Positions 2,217 to 60,255 of a DNA stretch of 64,000 nucleotides are shown here, piece after piece; within the stretch, counting starts at the first letter, position 1, and every line of letters starts with the position of its first letter. A program made the translations under genes and the position numbers. The stretch spans positions 36,598 through 100,597 of the forward strand of contig WJKM01000016.1 of the NCBI GenBank assembly GCA_014729085.1. The letters are read 5' to 3'. The DNA is from Candidatus Dojkabacteria bacterium. GTDB taxonomy: Bacteria > Patescibacteriota > Dojkabacteria > B142 > WJKM01. The notes under the pieces are model-generated. The model saw only the letters and a program-made list of their open reading frames with translations. It was not told where the DNA came from and made no database searches.

Positions 2217-2312
2217 AATATCTTAGTTTAAAATATAAGATACTTTCTTCGATTATAATTTATTGTATAAGTTTATACAAATTAGATATTACTCAATTCT
2301 TAAAAGTATTAT

Positions 2313-2696
2313 TAACCAATCCATAAGCCGCATTCTGTATCCCCCCGTTTTACAGGGTTGAGATAATCATTTGTCTATGCCCCCGTAAAACGGGGTTGCT
2401 CCAGGCAGGGATTACCTTGCTCACGTAAATTACTTCACGTGACGGTGTGCTCTTACCACACCCTTTCAGCCTTACCATGAAGTAAACTAGTCTACTTCAT
2501 GACGGTTTCCTCTCTGTTGCTCTGTACCGTAAATTTACATCTACCCAGCTTAGTTCCCGTACCATAAGGTAAAGGATTTATTCCTGGTGCCACTTTCCTC
2601 ATGTACAAGAAAGTACATGATTTTGGAGTGCGGACTTTCCTCCCTCCTTTATTCCGAGAAATCGGAATTTAGGAGAGCGATTATCCAGATTGGTAT
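2313..2696 (-). ncRNA. rnpB: RNase P RNA, bacterial type A
   Basis: The minus strand carries GAGGAAAGUCCGCACUCC (P4 5' strand), AACAGAGAGGAAACCG, GGUAAGGCUGAAAGGGUGUGGUAAGAGCACACCG and ACAGAAUGCGGCUUAUGG (P4 3' strand). The P4 pairing CCGCA/UGCGG covaries, and P1 is ACCAAUC/GAUUGGU. The island is GC-rich in an AT-rich genome. Confidence 0.85.
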
Positions 2697-48762: not shown

Positions 48763-49386
48763 TTATTTAAAAAATATATCTTCTTGATAAGTTTGATCAC
48801 TGTTTATTAAAAAGTAAGCAATTTTAAAAACTAATTCGTCTTTAATATAAATATTCTCTATTTTACAGTTTCCTAACTTCTCTATAATATGGGTCTTAAA
48901 AGTAGCTGGAATTCTTGCAACAATATTTTTAGTAATACATTTACAGGTTAAATTAAACATTTTTCTAAGACTTGGTTTCGTTGAATCTATATCAGATACA
49001 TGGCTTGATCTGTCCATAACTCTAGTTGACCAACCCGGATCAAGTACAGCCACATCAGCTTTGATTGTTTTTAGGAGTTTAGGATTCAACACATCTCCTT
49101 TAATAAATTCAATATTATTAGCTTTATACAGTCTTGCATTCTTTCTTGCCATTTCTATTCTTTTCTTATTAATATCTATGCCAATGACCTTTTCAAACCT
49201 TTTAGCTAATTGAATACAGGTTGAACCAACACAGCTGCATAGCTCTACTGCGGTATTGAAGTCGCCCAAATCTAGGATTGTATTCGTCATATGTTCGGCT
49301 ACGTACTCAGGGTTGCTAATAAACGAAGAATATTTATCAGTAAAAACATTTTTTGAAAACCTTTTCCGTTTTTTCTTTTTTTGCAT
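48763..49386 (-). CDS. TGS1-like (RNA cap guanine-N2 methyltransferase family, PF09445-like) SAM-dependent methyltransferase, paralog A
   Basis: ELCSCVGSTCIQLA is motif I, VIGIDINKKRIEMARKNARLY follows, and VLDPGWS compares with the TGS1 SPPWGG motif. The length is 207 aa. Confidence 0.5.
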   Translation of the reverse strand: MQKKKKRKRFSKNVFTDKYSSFISNPEYVAEHMTNTILDLGDFNTAVELCSCVGSTCIQLAKRFEKVIGIDINKKRIEMARKNARLYKANNIEFIKGDVLNPKLLKTIKADVAVLDPGWSTRVMDRSSHVSDIDSTKPSLRKMFNLTCKCITKNIVARIPATFKTHIIEKLGNCKIENIYIKDELVFKIAYFLINSDQTYQEDIFFK

Positions 49387-51904: not shown

Positions 51905-51924
51905 CGGAGCGTAGTTCAGTTGGC
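51905..51924 (+). other. orphan 5' fragment of tRNA-Pro (nt 1-20), continued after the tandem repeats by TAGAACGCAC at 52081..52090 (nt 21-30)
   Basis: The first 30 nt of the intact tRNA-Pro at 52342 are reproduced exactly, split by the repeat insertion. Confidence 0.7.
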
Positions 51925-52080
51925 CTGCCCGACTGAGGTGAGTAGTTTAATAATAAATAATGTCGTTCAGGCGGGCCTGCCCGACTGAGGTGAGTAGTTT
52001 AATAATAAATAATGTCGTTCAGGCGGGCCTGCCCGACTGAGGTGAGTAATTCAATAATAAATAATGTCGTTCAGGCGGGC
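51925..52080 (+). repeat. three tandem 52-bp units, each with ~10-bp terminal inverted repeats (CTGCCCGACTG ... CAGGCGGGC)
   Basis: The period is exactly 52 bp. Units 1 and 2 are identical and unit 3 differs at 3 positions. The GC-rich ends can pair as hairpins across the junctions. Confidence 0.8.
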
Positions 52081-52100
52081 TAGAACGCACAAGAAGTTAT

Positions 52101-52364
52101 ATGTATTATGTATACTTATTGATAAATAAGAAAAAGAGTTACAAATACGTTGGTATTACTAAAGATATTAAGAAAAGATTAAGAGATCATAACCAAGGAA
52201 AGACCAGATCTACAAAACCATATAGACCATTTGATAAAATAATAATTTTAGATAAATTAGAAAGTCGAAAAGAAGCAAGAGAAAGAGAGAAATATTTTAA
52301 GTCTGCAACAGGAAGAAAGAAAAGAGAATTAATATTAAATACGGAGCGTAGTTCAGTTGGCTAG
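52101..52364 (+). CDS. small GIY-YIG nuclease-family protein (YhbQ/UPF0213-like)
   Basis: MYYVYLLINKKKSYKYVGITKDIKKRLRDHNQG has the GIY-YIG core with Arg and Glu downstream. The 3' end and stop codon (TAG) lie inside the 5' end of tRNA-Pro. Confidence 0.65.
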   Translation: MYYVYLLINKKKSYKYVGITKDIKKRLRDHNQGKTRSTKPYRPFDKIIILDKLESRKEAREREKYFKSATGRKKRELILNTERSSVG

Positions 52365-52415
52365 AACGCACGGTTTGGGACCGTGAGGTCATCGGTTCAA
52401 GTCCGATCGCTCCGA
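52342..52415 (+). tRNA. tRNA-Pro (anticodon UGG)
   Basis: The acceptor is CGGAGCG/CGCTCCG (a C1:G72 pair) and the D-arm is GTTC-AGTTGGCTA-GAAC. The anticodon arm is CACGG-TTTGGGA-CCGTG and the T-arm is ATCGG-TTCAAGT-CCGAT. A73 is the discriminator. Confidence 0.85.
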
Positions 52416-52571
52416 CTTTTGTCTTTAAAATTCCCAAAACCCTATCCACTGCAAGGTGTATTTTTAATATTTGTCTCCCTCCAACGAATCACTCACCCAA
52501 CAAAATTTCCTATGTATATATATGATTTATCACCGTTTACAGTACTATGTGCGTGAAAATAAGTCATAAAA

Positions 52572-52775
52572 ATGTTAAGATCAAGTATCCATAAATTGAT
52601 ATCAAATTACGAAAAAATGAGCATAGAAAATATTGGCTATAATATAAAGAACATACGTATAGAAAAGGGATTGACTCAGGAGGATTTAGCAAGAAAAGCA
52701 GATATTCCGTTGTCTACGATAAGTAAGATTGAAAGTGGGGTGTTCAGGATTGTAATAATTATTTATGCTCTTTAA
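52572..52775 (+). CDS. small HTH-XRE family regulator
   Basis: IRIEKGLTQEDLARKADIPLSTISKIESG is a Cro/C1-type HTH. The true start may be the internal MSIEN at 52617. Confidence 0.55.
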   Translation: MLRSSIHKLISNYEKMSIENIGYNIKNIRIEKGLTQEDLARKADIPLSTISKIESGVFRIVIIIYAL

Positions 52776-52829
52776 ATGAATAGTAAAAAATGATTACAGT
52801 AAAAGTTAGAGATAAATCTAATAGTTGAC

Positions 52830-54713
52830 TTGAAAAGTATATATATTAAATTAATCTGTAAAGAAATTATACAAAAAATGGAGATGTTTAAAGAAATCAA
52901 AAATAGTCTTTTTAGAAATGGTAATAAGTTAGAAGATAACGAATCCTTTTCAATCAAAAAGGCTACAATTGGGAGTAAGGATATAAAGCTATCACCGAAC
53001 TCTATTGTGATTATTACAGGAGAGAATGGTGCAGGAAAGACTACATTATTAAACGAAATAAGTCGAAGTATCAAAACTAAGATTGAAGGAAAAATACTTA
53101 CATCCGTAGAATTAAATGACGTAAAACCATCGAATCTTGAGACCTATTTTTCACATAGGTTTTCTAGTAGATATTCTTCTGATTGGGGGGAATTCTGGGT
53201 ATATAAAGGAGGAGCGATTGCAAAAAAGGATATTGAAGCCTATTCTAACAATCCCTCAGATAAATATCTGACCACTGTAATAGAAGATACCAGTATAGAA
53301 AAAAATTTTAGTATTCAAGATAAAAATGTGCAAGATATAATTGAAAATTTTAAAGTTGAGTTTTTAGATACCACTAGTCGTTTAGAAATAACCCTCCCAA
53401 AAGATCGGTATGATATGAATAGTAATGAAACCTCTGAACACATTCATATATTACAAAAAGATAAAGAATTACTTGAGAATGTATCAGAAGCAATGAGGAA
53501 AACTTTCGGGAAAGGTATAGTTATTAATCAAGGTGGATCAAAGAAAGTATGGTTTCATTACGGTGAAATTACATCAAAGAATATTTCACCCATAAGTTCA
53601 GATTACCTAACTAAATTAAATAAACTTCCTTTATTACATCAACAAGGAGATGGTATCAAAGCTTTCATGGGAATTCTTTTATCTCTTTATTGTGGTAAAA
53701 CCCCATATTTATTTATAGATGAGCCAGATTTGTTTCTTCATCCCCCACAAGCAAGGCAACTTGGAGAATTGGTTGCTACAAGTGCATCATCGGAGAATAA
53801 AAATAGACAAATATTCCTAGCTACTCATTCAAAAGATTTTATTGAAGGGCTTATTAACACAGGTAGTAATGTGACTCTTGTCCGCCTTGGAGAAAAAAAC
53901 TCAAAAGGAGACGTTACGATTTATGAATCGAACAAATTAAAAAACATAGGGTCACGCGATTTCCTTAAATTTAGTGAATCAATAAATGGTCTCTTTTATA
54001 AAGGTATAGTATTATGCGAGGGAGGCGATGACTTAACATATTATAAATTCATCTCAAAGCTATATTACAAAGAAAAGAATCTTCCATTATCTAAAGAGCT
54101 ATTTTTTATTAATTGTGGAGGTAAAAGTGAGATTGTTAAATATGCCAATCTTTTAAGAGAGTTAGACATTAATTTCTCAATAATATTTGATATTGATATA
54201 CTTCGAAGTAAAGATTTACTAAAAAAACTAAGGAATTTATATATAGAATTTCCTTCAACTAAGGAAATAAATAAAACAGTCGCTGAACTAGAAAAGAAAG
54301 CATATGAAAAAATTAATAAAACACTAAACTTTGATTCACTAAAAAAGCTTGTTAAAAAATTTCATGATTCAATAGACCAAGAAAAGATGCCAGATAAGAA
54401 AGATGTCGAAGATTTTAATAAATTTATAGGAAACAAACGAAAATGGAAAGTTATAAAAGGATCAGGTAGTACAATTTTAACAGGCCACTCGATTACCGAT
54501 TGGCAAAAACTTATTGAAAATTTCAAGAAATTAGGTATTTTTATAGTACCAGTTGGAGAATTGGAATCTTGGGATAAAAAAGCTGGTAGTAAAAATAGTT
54601 CTAATTGGATTGAAAATGCTATTGATGGGAAAGATGAAGAATTTCTCGAAAAAAATAAAGAGCTAAATAAATTCATAAAGTACTTATTCCAATTTCATGA
54701 GATAGTGGAATAA
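52830..54713 (+). CDS. OLD-family nuclease (N-terminal ABC-type ATPase + C-terminal TOPRIM)
   Basis: Walker A is TGENGAGKTT, Walker B is LFIDEPDLFLHP and the H-loop is LATHS. The C-terminal TOPRIM has VLCEGGDD followed by FDIDIL acidic motifs. Confidence 0.65.
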   Translation: MKSIYIKLICKEIIQKMEMFKEIKNSLFRNGNKLEDNESFSIKKATIGSKDIKLSPNSIVIITGENGAGKTTLLNEISRSIKTKIEGKILTSVELNDVKPSNLETYFSHRFSSRYSSDWGEFWVYKGGAIAKKDIEAYSNNPSDKYLTTVIEDTSIEKNFSIQDKNVQDIIENFKVEFLDTTSRLEITLPKDRYDMNSNETSEHIHILQKDKELLENVSEAMRKTFGKGIVINQGGSKKVWFHYGEITSKNISPISSDYLTKLNKLPLLHQQGDGIKAFMGILLSLYCGKTPYLFIDEPDLFLHPPQARQLGELVATSASSENKNRQIFLATHSKDFIEGLINTGSNVTLVRLGEKNSKGDVTIYESNKLKNIGSRDFLKFSESINGLFYKGIVLCEGGDDLTYYKFISKLYYKEKNLPLSKELFFINCGGKSEIVKYANLLRELDINFSIIFDIDILRSKDLLKKLRNLYIEFPSTKEINKTVAELEKKAYEKINKTLNFDSLKKLVKKFHDSIDQEKMPDKKDVEDFNKFIGNKRKWKVIKGSGSTILTGHSITDWQKLIENFKKLGIFIVPVGELESWDKKAGSKNSSNWIENAIDGKDEEFLEKNKELNKFIKYLFQFHEIVE

Positions 54714-55475
54714 AATATATCTAAACAGATAATTAAGAGGTCTAGTTATTGAGAAAGTTTATTCATATACATAGATAAATTACCTAGTACGTAACATATT
54801 GATTAAACCTCCTCTCAAAATTAAACCACATCTCAATAGGCGAGAAGATAGACCAATAATCCAGTTTCGTAAGCATGACCCTCAGCTCCGATCAGATGCT
54901 ACAAAATCCCATTATATCGAGCTAACCACATGTGTCACGCCTATACATCTAATTATATATTTTTCATAAAAGTGCTAGTAAATACACATTATTTATCAAA
55001 ATGAACAAAAAACTATCTATACGAAAAAAGAGAAACTTTAAAATTATGGAGCTCTTATTTGCAATAGAACTAATACCTTCAAATTTTCTATATATTGCAA
55101 TAAGTACAATTGTTAGGTGAGGAGATGGCAACAACCTCGTTCAAGAGTATTACATTGATTCCTCTTTGATATTCTGAAATCTCAGGAATTTGTGGAGTAT
55201 TATCCTTTTCGTATCTTTTCTACATGATGCTATATGACTATTTTAAAAATTCTCTCACCCGAAGATTGCTTTATAGTATATCTTTTTTTGGGGGGGGTAA
55301 TACTGTCATTTAGATTTTTTACAAAAAATTTTATGAAATACACAAGTGATTACATTCTAATAACGTATCTAACTTAACTTGACAAACAGGGAAGTGAAGT
55401 ATAGTATATTTATTGTAGATTGCAGGAATTTCATAAGCTATAATTAAGACACTCATAAAAACAATAAATAATAAA

Positions 55476-57530
55476 AAAAAGACCATAACACTTTTAATAA
55501 TATCGGCCGTCGCTTTAATTTCTATTTATTCGCTGTGGTACATATCTAATCATAATGTTGCACCCAAAGACTCTAATGCATCAACAGAAAACCTTGAACG
55601 AAACTGGTTATATAAAAAATCAATAACTATTGACAATCCCACCTCAACAGAAGTTAACGACTACGCATTAAAGGTTAATTTATCTGATATACAAAAGTAT
55701 CTTAAGTCAGATTGTGGAGACTTAAGATTTACTGATAGTAATAACAATATATTAAATTATTGGATAAGAAAATGTGATGATTCAGGAGTTATTGCTCATG
55801 TAAAGGTTGATCTGAAAGCAGACAAAAATACTGATCCAATAAATGTTTATTATGGGAATAATTCTGCTGAAAGCAAATCTAATGGGAAAATGACATTTGA
55901 TTACTTTGAAGACTTTGACAACTTTAACCCTACTGTAAAATTCGGATTAATAACAGATTTACATCATGACACCAATAATAAGAATTATTGGAAAGGCATG
56001 GACTTAGAAAAACAATACCTCATGAACGCACGTCCAAAGTTACGTAACTTTATCAACAGTATGAATAATTGGGAAGCTAACTTTATAGTAAATCTTGGTG
56101 ACTTTATTACAGCAGAAAATTATAATACGCATTATGGTGGATTGGCTATTAATGAATCAGTAGAATTACCTGAACAAGCATTCAAGGCTTTACAGGAAAT
56201 GGAGAATGAGTACCAGAAATTCGATGGTAATAGATATTATGTTCATAGCAACCATGAATTTTATAACTTGAGCCTGTCCGATATACATGGGAAGAATCAC
56301 ATATTGTGTAGTAAAAATCCAGAATTGCCCTGCGGTATTGGTGGTCAGGGAGCAACATTAAACCAATCTAATGGCATTAACCAATCATATTATTCATTTG
56401 ATAGAGGAGGCGTTCATTTCGTGCTAATTGACTTACAATATAAGCCTCATACAAATATTCACAGAGGCCCTGAAGGTGAATCCGATTATGGAATCAACTA
56501 CATGAATAAAGATCAATTGAACTGGCTTAAAAATGACTTATCTGATACAAGAAGTCCAATAATCATTTTTTCTCCTACAAGAATTGATGATACTGATTAT
56601 CTCTCCGATGAAGAATGCGACACATCAGATATTATTGAATATTGTACGAACTATGAAGAAAATCCTTCCCTTGCTACAAGTCAATGTAAGGATTTTTATC
56701 AATATAGAAATGTAGTCAATAAAGACGAAATTCAGTCAGTAATAGCAGATAATAATGATAGAGTCCTAGCGGTTTTCCAGGGAAATGAACATTTAAATAC
56801 AAGAGCGATTCAGGACGGGGTACACTACATTACAGTGAATGCTGCTGATCAGGAAAACACCTGGTTCGTAAATTACCTGAAAGTTGAAATTGATCCAGTA
56901 TCCAAACTTATTTCAGTTATTAGTGGTAATTCTCCTCAAAGTACTTATTCAATAACTTATAACGATGGCTATATGGAATTGAAAAATAACACAGAAGCAA
57001 CCTATTTACCATCATTACTACCAACAAAGAATCACTTGGAAGACGACATGATCGTAGAAGCCGAATGGGAAATAACAAATAATAATGCTAATACAGGCAA
57101 ACAGTTTGCAATAGGCTATTGGAGAGATGCGGATTTTTTAAAAATTAGACATAGGTGTGCCACAACTCCAAGACCGCGAGAATATACACTCACAAGTGTA
57201 CGTAAATTGGATTCATATTATATGGGAGAAGGTTTTGGTGTTGAAACAGTTATTAACTCGAAAAGTTACAAAAATTCAATAGATTTAAAAAATACTGCTG
57301 ATTCTGGTCATCTGTGGTTGCATTACTCCAATGATACACTCAAATCTTGGTTCAGGTCTTCCCAAGGGGGAGGATTTCTTGGCGAGAATAAATACCCACA
57401 TATTCCTAAAGATGTTCTTTATCCCGGTGCTTGGGTCTTTAATAAAACTAATGCCAAGGTTGATTATTTTATTGTTCGTAAAACGGTTCAAGACGAAAAC
57501 AATGAAGAACCTCTTGGCTCATTGAATTAA
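55476..57530 (+). CDS. secreted or membrane-anchored DUF2341-domain + calcineurin-like metallophosphoesterase protein; start codon unresolved
   Basis: Downstream of the listed ATG (55890) are GLITDLHHD, NLGDFI and VHSNHEF, the DxH/GDxx/GNHE metallophosphatase motifs. The in-frame upstream sequence encodes a signal anchor (TFNNISAVALISIYSLWYIS) and a DUF2341-like segment (WLYKKSITIDNP...GDLRFTD...VYYGN). There is no ATG/GTG/TTG before the stop at 55473. Confidence 0.5.
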   Translation, partial: KKTITLLIISAVALISIYSLWYISNHNVAPKDSNASTENLERNWLYKKSITIDNPTSTEVNDYALKVNLSDIQKYLKSDCGDLRFTDSNNNILNYWIRKCDDSGVIAHVKVDLKADKNTDPINVYYGNNSAESKSNGKMTFDYFEDFDNFNPTVKFGLITDLHHDTNNKNYWKGMDLEKQYLMNARPKLRNFINSMNNWEANFIVNLGDFITAENYNTHYGGLAINESVELPEQAFKALQEMENEYQKFDGNRYYVHSNHEFYNLSLSDIHGKNHILCSKNPELPCGIGGQGATLNQSNGINQSYYSFDRGGVHFVLIDLQYKPHTNIHRGPEGESDYGINYMNKDQLNWLKNDLSDTRSPIIIFSPTRIDDTDYLSDEECDTSDIIEYCTNYEENPSLATSQCKDFYQYRNVVNKDEIQSVIADNNDRVLAVFQGNEHLNTRAIQDGVHYITVNAADQENTWFVNYLKVEIDPVSKLISVISGNSPQSTYSITYNDGYMELKNNTEATYLPSLLPTKNHLEDDMIVEAEWEITNNNANTGKQFAIGYWRDADFLKIRHRCATTPRPREYTLTSVRKLDSYYMGEGFGVETVINSKSYKNSIDLKNTADSGHLWLHYSNDTLKSWFRSSQGGGFLGENKYPHIPKDVLYPGAWVFNKTNAKVDYFIVRKTVQDENNEEPLGSLN

Positions 57531-59631: not shown

Positions 59632-60255
59632 TTGATTAAAAGAAAAAAGGAAGAACGATTTTCTAAAAAAGTATTCACAAATGAGCAGTCTTCATTTATC
59701 AGCACTCCTGAATATGTTGCTGAACATGTTGTTGATACAATTCTTGGTTTGGGAGATTTTAGGTCAGCTGTTGAACTTTGTAGTTGTGTTGGCTCTACAT
59801 GTATTCAGCTGGGCAGACACCTTGATAAGGTTGTTGGGATAGAAATTGATGAGGATAGAGTAGTTATGGCCAGGAAAAATGCAATACTGTACGGTGTAGA
59901 TAATGTGCAGTTTATTAGGGGAGATGTTTTGGACATTAAACTATTAAAATCAATTAATGCTGATATTGCATTTCTTGATCCGGGCTGGTCTACAAGGCTG
60001 ATGGATAGATCAAGTCATGTATCAGATATCGATTCAACCAATCCCAGCCTAAGGAAGATGTTTGATTTGACTAAAAGACACATAACTGAAAATATCATCG
60101 CCAGAATACCTGCTACATTTAACTTCGGGACTTTGAAAGAACTGGGGAAGTGTAGATTAGAAAATATAATAATCAATAATGAACTTGTTTTTAAGTTTGC
60201 ATATTTTATTGGCGAATATAAAAGATGTGAAGAAGAGGATGTTGTGTTTGAATAA
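59632..60255 (+). CDS. TGS1-like SAM-dependent methyltransferase, paralog B (inverted relative to paralog A)
   Basis: The 207-aa protein is about 65% identical to 48763..49386 and shares ELCSCVGSTCIQL and LDPGWSTR. Confidence 0.5.
   Translation: MIKRKKEERFSKKVFTNEQSSFISTPEYVAEHVVDTILGLGDFRSAVELCSCVGSTCIQLGRHLDKVVGIEIDEDRVVMARKNAILYGVDNVQFIRGDVLDIKLLKSINADIAFLDPGWSTRLMDRSSHVSDIDSTNPSLRKMFDLTKRHITENIIARIPATFNFGTLKELGKCRLENIIINNELVFKFAYFIGEYKRCEEEDVVFE

What the first reader, a model, noticed from the sequence alone, without database searches (positions are those of the whole stretch)
52572..54713. XRE regulator + OLD-family (ABC ATPase-TOPRIM) nuclease islet next to tRNA-Pro
The 627-aa protein has an ABC-type ATPase N-terminus (GENGAGKTT, FIDEPDLFLHP, LATHS) and a C-terminal TOPRIM (VLCEGGDD, DID). 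This is the OLD/Gabija-GajA/PARIS-AriA-type architecture that established work links to anti-phage defence. A small HTH-XRE gene lies directly upstream and no helicase partner is present. Downstream is 760 bp with no ORF. Its position next to tRNAs and mobile-element scars suggests a defence islet. Standalone class-1 OLD proteins are functionally little characterised.
Basis: partly seen in the sequence, partly recalled or inferred. Interest (0 to 1): 0.65.

Follow-up and report, generated by a model that had tools for sequence, protein, structure and literature searches.

The report
Standalone OLD-family defence nuclease gene
This is an intact single-gene ATP-driven nuclease of the widespread OLD family, which protects bacteria from viruses; here it sits in a tiny-genome Dojkabacteria bacterium, and it is an ordinary member of a large known family, not a new system.

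Summary
ORF 52878..54713 (611 aa from the ATG; 627 aa from an upstream TTG) encodes an ABC-type ATPase fused to an OLD-type TOPRIM nuclease. Every catalytic residue is present.

It is a full-length member of a large, discrete family of about 565 aa. It scores 399 bits against a family profile built without it. The profile finds 2,179 clusters (50% identity) at E<=1e-30.

The nearest characterised relative is phage P2 Old (about 80 bits; profile match to the C-terminus). Thermus OLD is next (56 bits). GajA, AriA and retron OLDs are more distant.

In 87 genomic loci the family has no conserved neighbour. It recurs beside restriction-modification genes and recombinases. At least 10 of 53 proviral contigs place it near a P2 gpA-like replication gene, recalling the P2 old/tin locus. 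This fits class 1 (standalone) OLD and an anti-phage role.

The upstream XRE ORF is C-terminally truncated and is not a family partner. The downstream gap of about 720 bp shows no gene remnant or RNA. No integrase or tRNA attachment repeat marks an island.

Class 1 OLDs now have experimental work (Vc OLD, P2 Old, YbjD).

Verdict: new member of a known kind, low interest.

A side observation may deserve its own look: a GIY-YIG cassette that duplicates tRNA 5' ends.

The parts
52878..54713 (+). OLD-family nuclease gene (611 aa; an alternative TTG at 52830 would give 627 aa).
   Evidence: ORF. An identical NCBI protein exists. It scores 399.5 bits end to end against a family HMM built without it and without its closest homolog. 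AF2 model: pLDDT 84, pTM 0.83. Top PDB fold matches are retron Eco8 OLD, GajA and Ts OLD.
53019..53042 (+). Walker A / P-loop GENGAGKT (K54).
   Evidence: G48, N50, G53 and K54 are invariant in 64 family sequences.
53640..53666 (+). ABC signature-like motif QQGDGIKAF (Q256-G-D258-G259).
   Evidence: D258 and G259 are invariant; Q256 and G257 are conserved in at least 62 of 64 sequences. Assigning this motif to the ABC signature is my inference from its position before Walker B.
53706..53756 (+). Walker B (FIDEPD; D281, E282), followed by the LHPP segment with invariant H288.
   Evidence: This stretch aligns to Ts OLD and P2 Old.
53817..53831 (+). H-loop LATHS (H317).
   Evidence: H317 is invariant.
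54009..54203 (+). TOPRIM core: VLCEGGDD (E381, D385), CGGKS (G415, K416), IFDIDIL (D438, D440).
   Evidence: Pfam PF20469 covers residues 388-456 of the 627-aa version. E381, D385, D438 and D440 are invariant. The region aligns with Ts OLD; its metal ligands E377, D381, D431 and D433 (PMC7049728) would correspond by motif position. That residue correspondence is my inference, because the printed alignments carry no per-residue numbering.
54198..54536 (+). Helical insert of about 110 aa (residues 441-553, six helices) between the DxD strand and the last TOPRIM strand. It carries invariant K527 (54456-54458).
   Evidence: Secondary structure of the AF2 model. K527 is invariant and aligns to a Lys at about position 511 of P2 Old in the hhalign output. 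A catalytic role analogous to Ts R487 or Bp K562 is inferred.
54546..54572 (+). Last TOPRIM strand, VPVGELESW (G560, E561, E563). These are probable metal-B ligands.
   Evidence: G560 and E561 are invariant; E563 is in 63 of 64 sequences. It aligns to the 'SGDIE' stretch of P2 Old. The analogy to Ts S478/E480 is inferred.
52572..52775 (+). Truncated XRE-type HTH ORF (67 aa; the real start is probably ATG 52617, giving 52 aa). It is probably a decaying relic and not a partner of the nuclease.
   Evidence: All HTH models match only their first 32-37 positions. The only close homolog, P0261 (80 aa), aligns to residues 16-59 at 64% identity and then continues with helices 4-5, which are missing here.
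52825..52852 (+). Promoter-like site (TTGACT-16-TAAATT), 26 nt upstream of ATG 52878.
   Evidence: Consensus scan only. Such sites are not enriched in the region (32 found against 25.7 +/- 4.3 expected). Weak evidence.
54714..55436 (.). ORF-free spacer downstream of the nuclease gene. Nothing recognisable was found in it.
   Evidence: No Rfam match at E<=1. Folding z-scores are +0.20 and +0.99. Ten of the twelve stop-free pieces of at least 25 aa were scanned against Pfam; the only hit was one chance-level match (DUF919, E 0.07). There is no similarity elsewhere in the window or in any fetched locus.

Best explanation
The gene encodes an intact, standalone (class 1) OLD-family nuclease of the P2-Old-like branch. 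It is carried as an accessory anti-phage gene in a Candidatus Dojkabacteria genome.

Shown:
- The protein has a complete ABC-type ATPase: Walker A K54, QGDG, Walker B D281/E282, H288 and H-loop H317.
- The ATPase is fused to a complete TOPRIM nuclease: E381, D385, D438xD440 and E561xE563, plus an invariant K527 on a helical insert.
- It is a full-length member of a large family that has no conserved partner gene.
- That family turns up beside restriction-modification genes and recombinases.
- At least 10 proviral contigs place it within about 5 kb of a P2 gpA-like replication gene. That neighbourhood recalls the P2 old/tin locus.

Inferred, from Ts OLD, Vc OLD and P2 Old:
- The protein dimerises through the region inserted in the ATPase.
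- ATP binding and hydrolysis license the TOPRIM site, which cuts by two-metal catalysis.
- It is held inactive until infection, and its activation stops phage replication at the cost of the infected cell (abortive infection).

Substrate: unknown. Its nearest characterised relative, P2 Old, severs tRNA anticodon stems. Vc OLD and Ts OLD nick or degrade DNA. On sequence proximity I lean slightly towards structured double-stranded RNA such as tRNA, at roughly 50:50 against DNA nicking.

The upstream XRE ORF is a truncated relic and the downstream 720 bp is featureless. Neither is part of the system.
For: Domain calls: Pfam AAA_21 and OLD-like_TOPRIM are above cut-off. The best PADLOC model is 'Old' at 1.6e-20.

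Family membership:
- 399.5 bits, covering profile positions 5-565, against an HMM that excluded this protein and its closest homolog.
- The family holds 2,179 representative clusters at E<=1e-30.
- All 22 invariant family residues, including every catalytic one, are present.

Structure: the AF2 model has pLDDT 84. Its top PDB matches are all OLD proteins, E 3e-10 to 4e-9.

Relationship to characterised proteins:
- P2 Old scores 79-81 bits. hhalign gives 98.7% probability, E 2.3e-16, aligned from Walker B to the C-terminus.
- Ts OLD scores 55.8 bits.
- YbjD reaches only 52% hhalign probability.
- No GajA chain passed E<=1e-3 in the profile search of PDB.

Context:
- No conserved neighbour in 87 genome loci; the largest neighbour cluster has 5 members.
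- Recurrent neighbours are type I HsdR, an Eco57I-like enzyme, SNF2 and DUF1156 proteins, a serine recombinase, Fic and AAA_21.
- 53 IMG/VR contigs carry true members at 286-693 bits. Ten of them have a P2 gpA-like gene within about 5 kb.

Mechanism sources: PMC7049728, PMC12392090, PMC12445682.
Against: - No member of this specific family has been tested, as far as I could find. The defence role rests on homology of about 25% identity to P2 Old and on gene neighbourhoods.
- The window itself holds no other recognisable defence gene, integrase or island boundary. The gene's composition matches the genome. Accessory status is therefore inferred from the patchy family distribution, not shown for this genome.
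- I could not find closely related Dojkabacteria loci to test presence or absence at this site.
- Not all OLD-family proteins are defensive. Archaeal Cran1 acts in cell-cycle progression (PMC12796447, abstract).
- Dimerisation and the role of K527 are inferred from sequence and secondary structure only. I had no access to model coordinates.
Confidence: 0.75

Rival explanations
1. The nuclease has a housekeeping role (DNA repair, replication or cell-cycle function) and not a defence role, as reported for the archaeal OLD-family ATPase Cran1.
For: The gene shows no compositional sign of recent transfer. The window has no flanking island markers or other defence genes. A non-defence OLD-family protein exists (PMC12796447). 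ABC ATPases of this fold include Rad50, SMC and RecN, which appear as lower-ranked fold matches.
Against: The family is patchily distributed across many phyla with ever-changing neighbours. It recurs next to restriction-modification genes and recombinases. It also occurs on proviral contigs, at least 10 of them with a P2 gpA-like gene nearby. A housekeeping gene would show conserved synteny. The nearest characterised relative is the defence protein P2 Old.
Confidence: 0.1
2. XRE and OLD form a functional two-gene module. The small HTH protein represses the nuclease or acts as its antitoxin, as in other XRE-controlled defence or toxin-antitoxin cassettes.
For: The two ORFs are adjacent and co-oriented, 102 bp apart. 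The HTH ORF hits PADLOC 'Control_protein' and 'HTH_VI' models and the NCBIfam HipB-type antitoxin model below cut-off. NCBI annotates it as a gene and not as a pseudogene.
Against: The HTH domain is truncated after helix 3-4. The closest intact homolog precedes an unrelated gene. The closest OLD homolog (43% identity) has a non-HTH ORF upstream. None of the 18 small upstream ORFs in other family loci reads like an XRE; this was judged by eye, without a Pfam scan.
Confidence: 0.1
3. The gene is the surviving half of a degraded multi-gene OLD system (Gabija, PARIS or retron type), and the partner gene decayed in the 720-bp downstream gap.
For: An unusually long ORF-free stretch of about 720 bp follows the gene in an otherwise gene-dense window.
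Against: Ten of the twelve stop-free pieces of the gap gave no helicase, DUF4435, reverse-transcriptase or other credible Pfam match; the only hit was a chance-level DUF919 at E 0.07. There is no Rfam hit and no structural signal for a retron ncRNA. The protein belongs to a family that is standalone in 87 other loci. It scores far better against 'Old' than against GajA, AriAB or retron I-B models.
Confidence: 0.04

Closest known systems
Phage P2 Old (class 1 OLD; UniProt P13520)
   Same: - Single-gene ABC-ATPase/TOPRIM protein of similar size (586 vs 611 aa).
- Profile-profile match of 98.7% probability from Walker B to the C-terminus. It includes the helical insert, a conserved Lys (K527 here, about K511 in P2) and the final G-[DE]-x-E strand.
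- Members of the window's family lie within about 5 kb of a P2 gpA-like gene in P2-like proviruses, recalling where P2 carries old.
   Different: - Only about 25% identity over about 190 residues.
- P2 Old scores 79-81 bits against the family profile, where true members score 286-693 bits. It is a sister family and not an ortholog.
- The region between Walker A and Walker B is about 35 residues shorter here (227 vs 262).
- P2 Old's trigger (RecBCD inhibition) and substrate (tRNA anticodon stems, PMC12445682) are untested for this family.
Thermus scotoductus OLD (PDB 6P74; class 1)
   Same: Best sequence match in the PDB, at 4.3e-08 for the single sequence and 3.2e-14 for the profile. The domain order is the same. 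The metal-ligand motifs E...D and DxD are shared, and E377/D381/D431/D433 would correspond to E381/D385/D438/D440 by motif position (PMC7049728).
   Different: The alignment stops after DxD. Ts OLD has a short link to S478-x-E480 and R487. The window protein has an insert of about 110 aa of helices there, with a Lys (K527) ahead of E561-x-E563.
Vibrio cholerae Vc OLD (class 1 DNA nickase, abortive infection; PMC12392090)
   Same: A standalone bacterial OLD whose defence needs Walker A, Walker B and the TOPRIM DxD. The Walker B to DxD spacing is similar (155 vs 157 residues).
   Different: I could not obtain the sequence for a direct comparison. Its Walker A to Walker B spacing (265) resembles P2 Old's more than this protein's (227). 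It lies in a defined phage-defence element with an integrase and DarTG; no such element is visible here.
Gabija GajA (class 2 OLD) and retron Eco8 OLD (class 3)
   Same: Same overall fold. They are among the top Foldseek matches, E about 1e-9 to 1e-10.
   Different: No GajB helicase, reverse transcriptase or ncRNA lies nearby. PADLOC GajA and ATPase-Toprim_I-B scores (41-47 bits) are below the 'Old' score of 71.5 bits. No GajA chain reached E<=1e-3 in the profile search of PDB.
PARIS AriA/AriB (class 4)
   Same: The N-terminal ATPase hits the PADLOC AriA model at 7.5e-16 and AriA chains in the PDB at about 1e-6, around Walker B only.
   Different: In PARIS the TOPRIM nuclease is a separate DUF4435 protein. 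Here the TOPRIM is fused and is of the PF20469 type. The fused AriAB model matches weakly and in part only (3.8e-09).

Membership tests
OLD family nucleases | N-terminal ABC-type ATPase with Walker A, signature-like motif, Walker B and H-loop. | tested here: met
   AAA_21 at 2.9e-15 and ABC_tran at 2.2e-07. K54, QGDG 256-259, D281/E282 and H317 are present and invariant in the family.
OLD family nucleases | C-terminal OLD-type TOPRIM domain with a conserved Glu and a DxD. | tested here: met
   PF20469 at 3.5e-10, covering 1-67 of 67 positions. E381, D385, D438 and D440 are invariant.
OLD family nucleases | Fold similarity to solved OLD proteins. | tested here: met
Class 1 (standalone) OLD | Single gene with no adjacent UvrD-like helicase, reverse transcriptase/ncRNA or AriB partner. 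| tested here: met
   In the window the neighbours are a truncated XRE, tRNAs and a DUF2341 protein. The gap holds no credible remnant. Across the family, 87 loci show no conserved neighbour.
Class 1 (standalone) OLD | Nuclease and ATPase activity; dimerisation through the insert in the ATPase. | not testable with these tools
   This needs biochemistry.
P2 Old subfamily (orthology) | Scores like a member against the same profile. | tested here: not met
   P2 Old scores 79-81 bits against the family HMM. This protein scores 399 bits and other members score 286-693 bits. The two are homologous (hhalign 98.7%) but belong to separate families.
Gabija (class 2 OLD) | [quoted passage not shown] | tested here: not met
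   No such ORF exists. No helicase remnant was found in 54714-55436.
Retron type I-B (class 3 OLD) | Adjacent reverse transcriptase and msr/msd ncRNA. | tested here: not met
   None of the scanned ORFs between 46.9 and 62.5 kb has a reverse-transcriptase domain. No Rfam match and no fold signal appear in the spacer.
PARIS (class 4) | AriA ATPase without TOPRIM, plus a separate AriB (DUF4435) gene. | tested here: not met
   The TOPRIM is fused and no DUF4435 hit was found.
tRNA-integrated genomic island | Integrase gene and a direct repeat of the tRNA 3' end marking the far boundary. | tested here: not met
   The tRNA-Pro 3' 21-mer occurs once in 64 kb, even allowing 3 mismatches. No integrase was found among the flanking ORFs.
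XRE-controlled two-gene defence or toxin-antitoxin module | An intact HTH regulator conserved upstream of the effector across relatives. | tested here: not met
   The HTH is truncated. It is absent upstream of the 43%-identical homolog. None of the 18 small upstream ORFs in other family loci reads like an XRE, judged by eye.

The most novel reading that the evidence does not exclude
The family of about 565 aa to which this protein belongs could be a distinct, so far uncharacterised subclass of standalone OLD nucleases. Its marks would be a helical insert inside the TOPRIM domain carrying an invariant catalytic lysine, with the insert reading structured RNA. In that case, like P2 Old, it would disable translation by cutting tRNA and not DNA. 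A Dojkabacteria (CPR) cell would then carry a tRNA-targeting abortive-infection enzyme despite its minimal genome.
Probability: 0.25. Interest if true: 0.45.

Novelty: new member of a known kind. Interest (0 to 1): 0.25.

Why it matters
For the finding itself, little changes. It adds one more intact class 1 OLD nuclease and shows that at least one Dojkabacteria genome keeps such a gene.

The family-level result is more useful. It is a large, discrete, partner-less OLD family. It sits closer to P2 Old than to Thermus OLD. Some proviral copies lie near a P2 gpA-like gene, as P2 old does. It has an invariant Lys on an insert inside the TOPRIM domain. No member seems to have been tested, so it is a reasonable next target for the open question of whether standalone OLD enzymes attack DNA or tRNA.

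Tried and rejected
- Remnants of a partner gene in 54714-55436. Ten of the twelve stop-free pieces gave no credible Pfam hit; the only hit was a chance-level DUF919 at E 0.07. Rfam at E<=1 found nothing. RNA folding of both strands was no better than shuffles, z +0.20 and +0.99. blastn found no repeats in the window or in the fetched loci.
- Island boundaries. The 3' end of tRNA-Pro has no second copy. The repeat scan of 50.5-58.5 kb gave only the tRNA-fragment repeats and chance-level matches.
- Synteny in related genomes. A metagenome scan with the neighbouring GFO/IDH/MocA protein returned only relatives of at most 40% identity, none with a tRNA nearby, so it was uninformative.
- Compositional evidence for horizontal transfer. 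There is none: GC 0.299 vs 0.321, and GC3 and codon-usage distance fall within the range of other genes.
- tblastn against 50,697 phage records. It found only one prophage homolog. The larger IMG/VR scan was more informative.
- YbjD as closest relative: rejected, at hhalign 52% probability.
- A frameshifted continuation of the XRE ORF. The other two frames downstream of residue 56 show no recognisable HTH helices 4-5.
- Literature on GIY-YIG genes flanked by tRNA fragments. Two full-text searches and the 2006 GIY-YIG survey gave no description.
Full report
**What is at the coordinates.**
The + strand carries an ORF open from TTG 52830 to the stop at 54713 (627 aa). NCBI holds the identical protein starting at ATG 52878 (611 aa), named 'AAA family ATPase [Candidatus Dojkabacteria bacterium]', on a 103.7-kb contig. 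I use the 611-aa numbering, for two reasons. The family profile aligns only from residue 19 of that version. Residues 1-21 are also low-confidence in the structure model. The window has 32% G+C. It also carries bacterial RNase P RNA and three tRNAs.

**Check of the observation.**
- Pfam finds AAA_21 (2.9e-15), ABC_tran (2.2e-07) and OLD-like_TOPRIM PF20469 (3.5e-10, whole model). All are above their curated cut-offs.
- In PADLOC the best model is 'Old' (1.6e-20). AriA, NsnB, retron ATPase-Toprim_I-B and GajA score lower.
- NCBIfam gives only sub-threshold P-loop matches.
- The best PDB sequence match is the class 1 OLD of Thermus scotoductus, 6P74 (4.3e-08).

**Family.**
A search of 5.8 billion proteins found one homolog at 43% identity (P0002, on a 3.4-kb metagenome contig of 31% G+C). 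About 70 others have 22-31% identity, are mostly 555-590 aa, and several are named 'ATP-dependent nuclease'.

In a 64-sequence alignment, 22 columns are invariant. They are exactly the expected catalytic set:
- G48, N50, G53, K54 (Walker A)
- D258, G259 (signature-like QGDG)
- E282 (Walker B), H288, H317 (H-loop)
- E381, D385, D438, D440 (TOPRIM)
- K527, G530, G560, E561

A profile built without the window protein and without P0002 still scores the window protein at 399.5 bits, over profile positions 5-565. It is therefore a bona fide full-length member.

The full profile finds 2,179 clusters (50% identity) at E<=1e-30 among 1.84 billion representatives. A pattern scan of species-representative genomes confirmed 289 hits spread over many phyla.

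**Structure.**
AlphaFold2 with this alignment gives pLDDT 84 and pTM 0.83. The Foldseek top hits in the PDB are retron Eco8 OLD, GajA and Ts OLD (E 3e-10 to 4e-9). SMC, Rad50 and RecN heads follow, matching the ATPase half only.

The model shows a run of six helices (residues 441-553) between the DxD strand and the last TOPRIM strand (VPVGELESW). The invariant K527 lies on this insert.

**Which known OLD is closest.**
With one database size for all comparisons, the family profile gives:
- P2 Old: 79-81 bits
- Ts OLD: 55.8 bits
- No GajA chain at E<=1e-3

hhalign against P2 Old gives 98.7% probability (E 2.3e-16). The alignment runs from Walker B to the last residues of both proteins. It pairs K527 with a Lys at about position 511 of P2 Old, and GELE with P2 GDIE. 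E. coli YbjD is much further away, at 52% probability.

True family members on viral contigs score 286-693 bits, and everything else scores 88 bits or less. The family is therefore discrete: a sister of P2 Old and not the same subfamily.

In Ts OLD the metal ligands are E377/D431/D433 and D381/S478/E480, with R487 as the transition-state residue (PMC7049728). By position I infer these equivalents here: E381/D438/D440, D385/E561/E563, and K527.

**Gene neighbourhoods.**
I called ORFs in 87 loci that hold family members and clustered all neighbours. The largest non-OLD cluster has five members, and no position next to the gene is conserved.

The recurring neighbours are a type I HsdR, an Eco57I-like enzyme, an SNF2-type helicase, a DUF1156 protein, a large serine recombinase, Fic and another AAA_21 ATPase. 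Individual look-ups also showed AlbA_2/Schlafen-type proteins, a type I R-M operon and a protein kinase next to members.

In IMG/VR, 53 proviral contigs carry true members. Ten of these have a P2 gpA-like replication gene within about 5 kb. That recalls the position of old and tin in P2 itself.

This is the pattern of a partner-less, mobile defence gene. It meets the context definition of class 1 OLD (PMC10568477).

**The XRE ORF.**
ORF 52572..52775 hits HTH_3 at 3.3e-11, but every HTH model stops at its position 32-37. Its only close homolog in the database is P0261 (80 aa). P0261 aligns at 64% identity to residues 16-59 and then continues with 'NPSIEKIAKIASALGVSVDELL...'. The window ORF reads 'IVIIIYAL' followed by a stop.

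So the real start is probably ATG 52617. About six codons after helix 3 and everything after helix 4 are gone.

P0261 overlaps the start of an unrelated ORF of at least 339 aa. That ORF has no Pfam hit and no similarity to the nuclease. The 43%-identical OLD homolog has a non-HTH ORF upstream. None of the 18 small same-strand ORFs directly upstream of other family members reads like an XRE; I judged this by eye and did not scan them.

I conclude that the XRE is a decaying relic, possibly of a different cassette. The PADLOC 'Control_protein' hit at 1.7e-08 is compatible with that. It is not a partner of the nuclease.

**The downstream gap.**
The next gene's frame is open from 55437. It encodes a membrane anchor and a DUF2341 domain (3.5e-17), so the gap is 54714-55436. 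It has no credible Pfam-detectable remnant in ten of its twelve stop-free pieces; the only hit was a chance-level DUF919 at E 0.07. It has no Rfam match, no excess RNA structure and no similarity to anything else I hold. I found nothing there.

**Is it an island?**
- There is no integrase.
- There is no second copy of the tRNA-Pro 3' end.
- There is no compositional anomaly.
- The 'scar' beside tRNA-Pro is a separate element, described under 'Noticed in passing' below.
- A synteny test in related genomes failed for lack of close relatives.

Accessory status is therefore inferred from the family's distribution and is not shown for this genome.

**How it most likely works.**
Shown: intact ATPase and TOPRIM catalytic sets, family membership, a standalone context, and association with defence genes and proviruses.

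Inferred from experiments on relatives:
- Dimerisation through the ATPase insert, and two-metal cleavage (Ts OLD).
- Dependence of defence on Walker A, Walker B and DxD, and abortive infection (Vc OLD).
- ATP hydrolysis as the licence for cutting (P2 Old).

The substrate is open. P2 Old, the nearest relative, severs tRNA anticodon stems. Vc OLD nicks DNA. I lean slightly to the P2-like reading on sequence proximity alone. The trigger is unknown.

**Novelty and score.**
This is a new member of a known kind. The protein is already in NCBI, and it belongs to a family of thousands. The class now has three experimentally studied members, so 'little characterised' no longer holds. Interest is low (0.25). 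What remains open is the untested substrate of this particular family.

**Noticed in passing: a GIY-YIG/tRNA cassette.**
The 87-aa GIY-YIG gene at 52101..52364 runs into tRNA-Pro. It is preceded, in order, by:
1. an exact copy of tRNA-Pro nucleotides 1-20;
2. three 52-nt hairpin-like repeats;
3. tRNA-Pro nucleotides 21-30.

Homologs of this GIY-YIG protein (40-57% identity) were examined in six other lineages. All lie next to a tRNA gene. In five of the seven lineages, counting the window, each GIY-YIG gene is preceded by an exact 20-33-nt copy of the 5' end of the downstream tRNA. A GC-rich stretch follows each copy, and in four of the five it is a CCTGCC...GGCAGG-type hairpin. The unit is sometimes repeated in tandem.

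This looks like a selfish cassette that inserts into tRNA genes and brings a replacement 5' segment. I found no description of it.

Noticed in passing
window 51905-52416; also L203-L211, L214, L215: A small GIY-YIG gene (52101..52364) overlaps the 5' end of tRNA-Pro(UGG). It is preceded by an exact copy of tRNA nt 1-20, then three 52-nt hairpin-like repeats (51922-52080), then tRNA nt 21-30. Homologs in other phyla show the same layout with tRNA-Leu, tRNA-Pro(GGG), tRNA-Arg and tRNA-Asn: a 20-33-nt tRNA 5' fragment, a GC-rich stretch (a CCTGCC...GGCAGG-type palindrome in most of them), the GIY-YIG gene, then the intact tRNA, sometimes as two tandem units. It looks like a tRNA-gene-targeting selfish cassette. 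No description was found in the searched literature.
   Followed up: partly
L212 1396-1764; L213 1375-1737: In two further lineages (Melioribacter and a Bacteroidetes MAG) the homologous GIY-YIG gene lies 18-41 nt downstream of a tRNA-Leu(CAA), with no duplicated fragment. This is a different arrangement of the same association.
   Followed up: partly
window 55437-57530 (+): The large gene after the gap encodes an N-terminal membrane anchor and a DUF2341 domain. These lie upstream of the first ATG/GTG/TTG in frame (55890). Between the stop at 55434 and 55890 the frame offers only ATA, ATT or CTG codons. This means a non-canonical start, a sequencing error, or a 5'-damaged gene. The 546-aa ATG version is not in the protein collection.
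   Followed up: partly
window 48763-49386 (-) and 59632-60255 (+): Two 207-aa Methyltransf_15-type methyltransferase paralogs, 64% identical, lie in opposite orientation about 10 kb apart. They bracket the tRNA/OLD region.
   Followed up: partly
L125, L129, L130, L136, L140, L166, L168, L170-L172: Members of the same OLD family lie within about 5 kb of a P2 gpA-like replication gene, often near the end of proviral contigs of about 30-40 kb. This recalls the position of old and tin in P2.
   Followed up: partly
L216 68-1304: The only close intact homolog of the window's XRE ORF overlaps by 23 nt the start of an ORF of at least 339 aa. That ORF has no Pfam match and no similarity to the OLD protein. 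It is an unidentified XRE-led cassette.
   Followed up: partly
window 52596-52605: A perfect 10-bp palindrome, TTGATATCAA, lies between the two candidate start codons of the XRE ORF (52572 and 52617). It could be an operator or chance in AT-rich DNA.
   Followed up: no
window 2309-2696 (-): Bacterial class A RNase P RNA, 148.9 bits. Ordinary.
   Followed up: no
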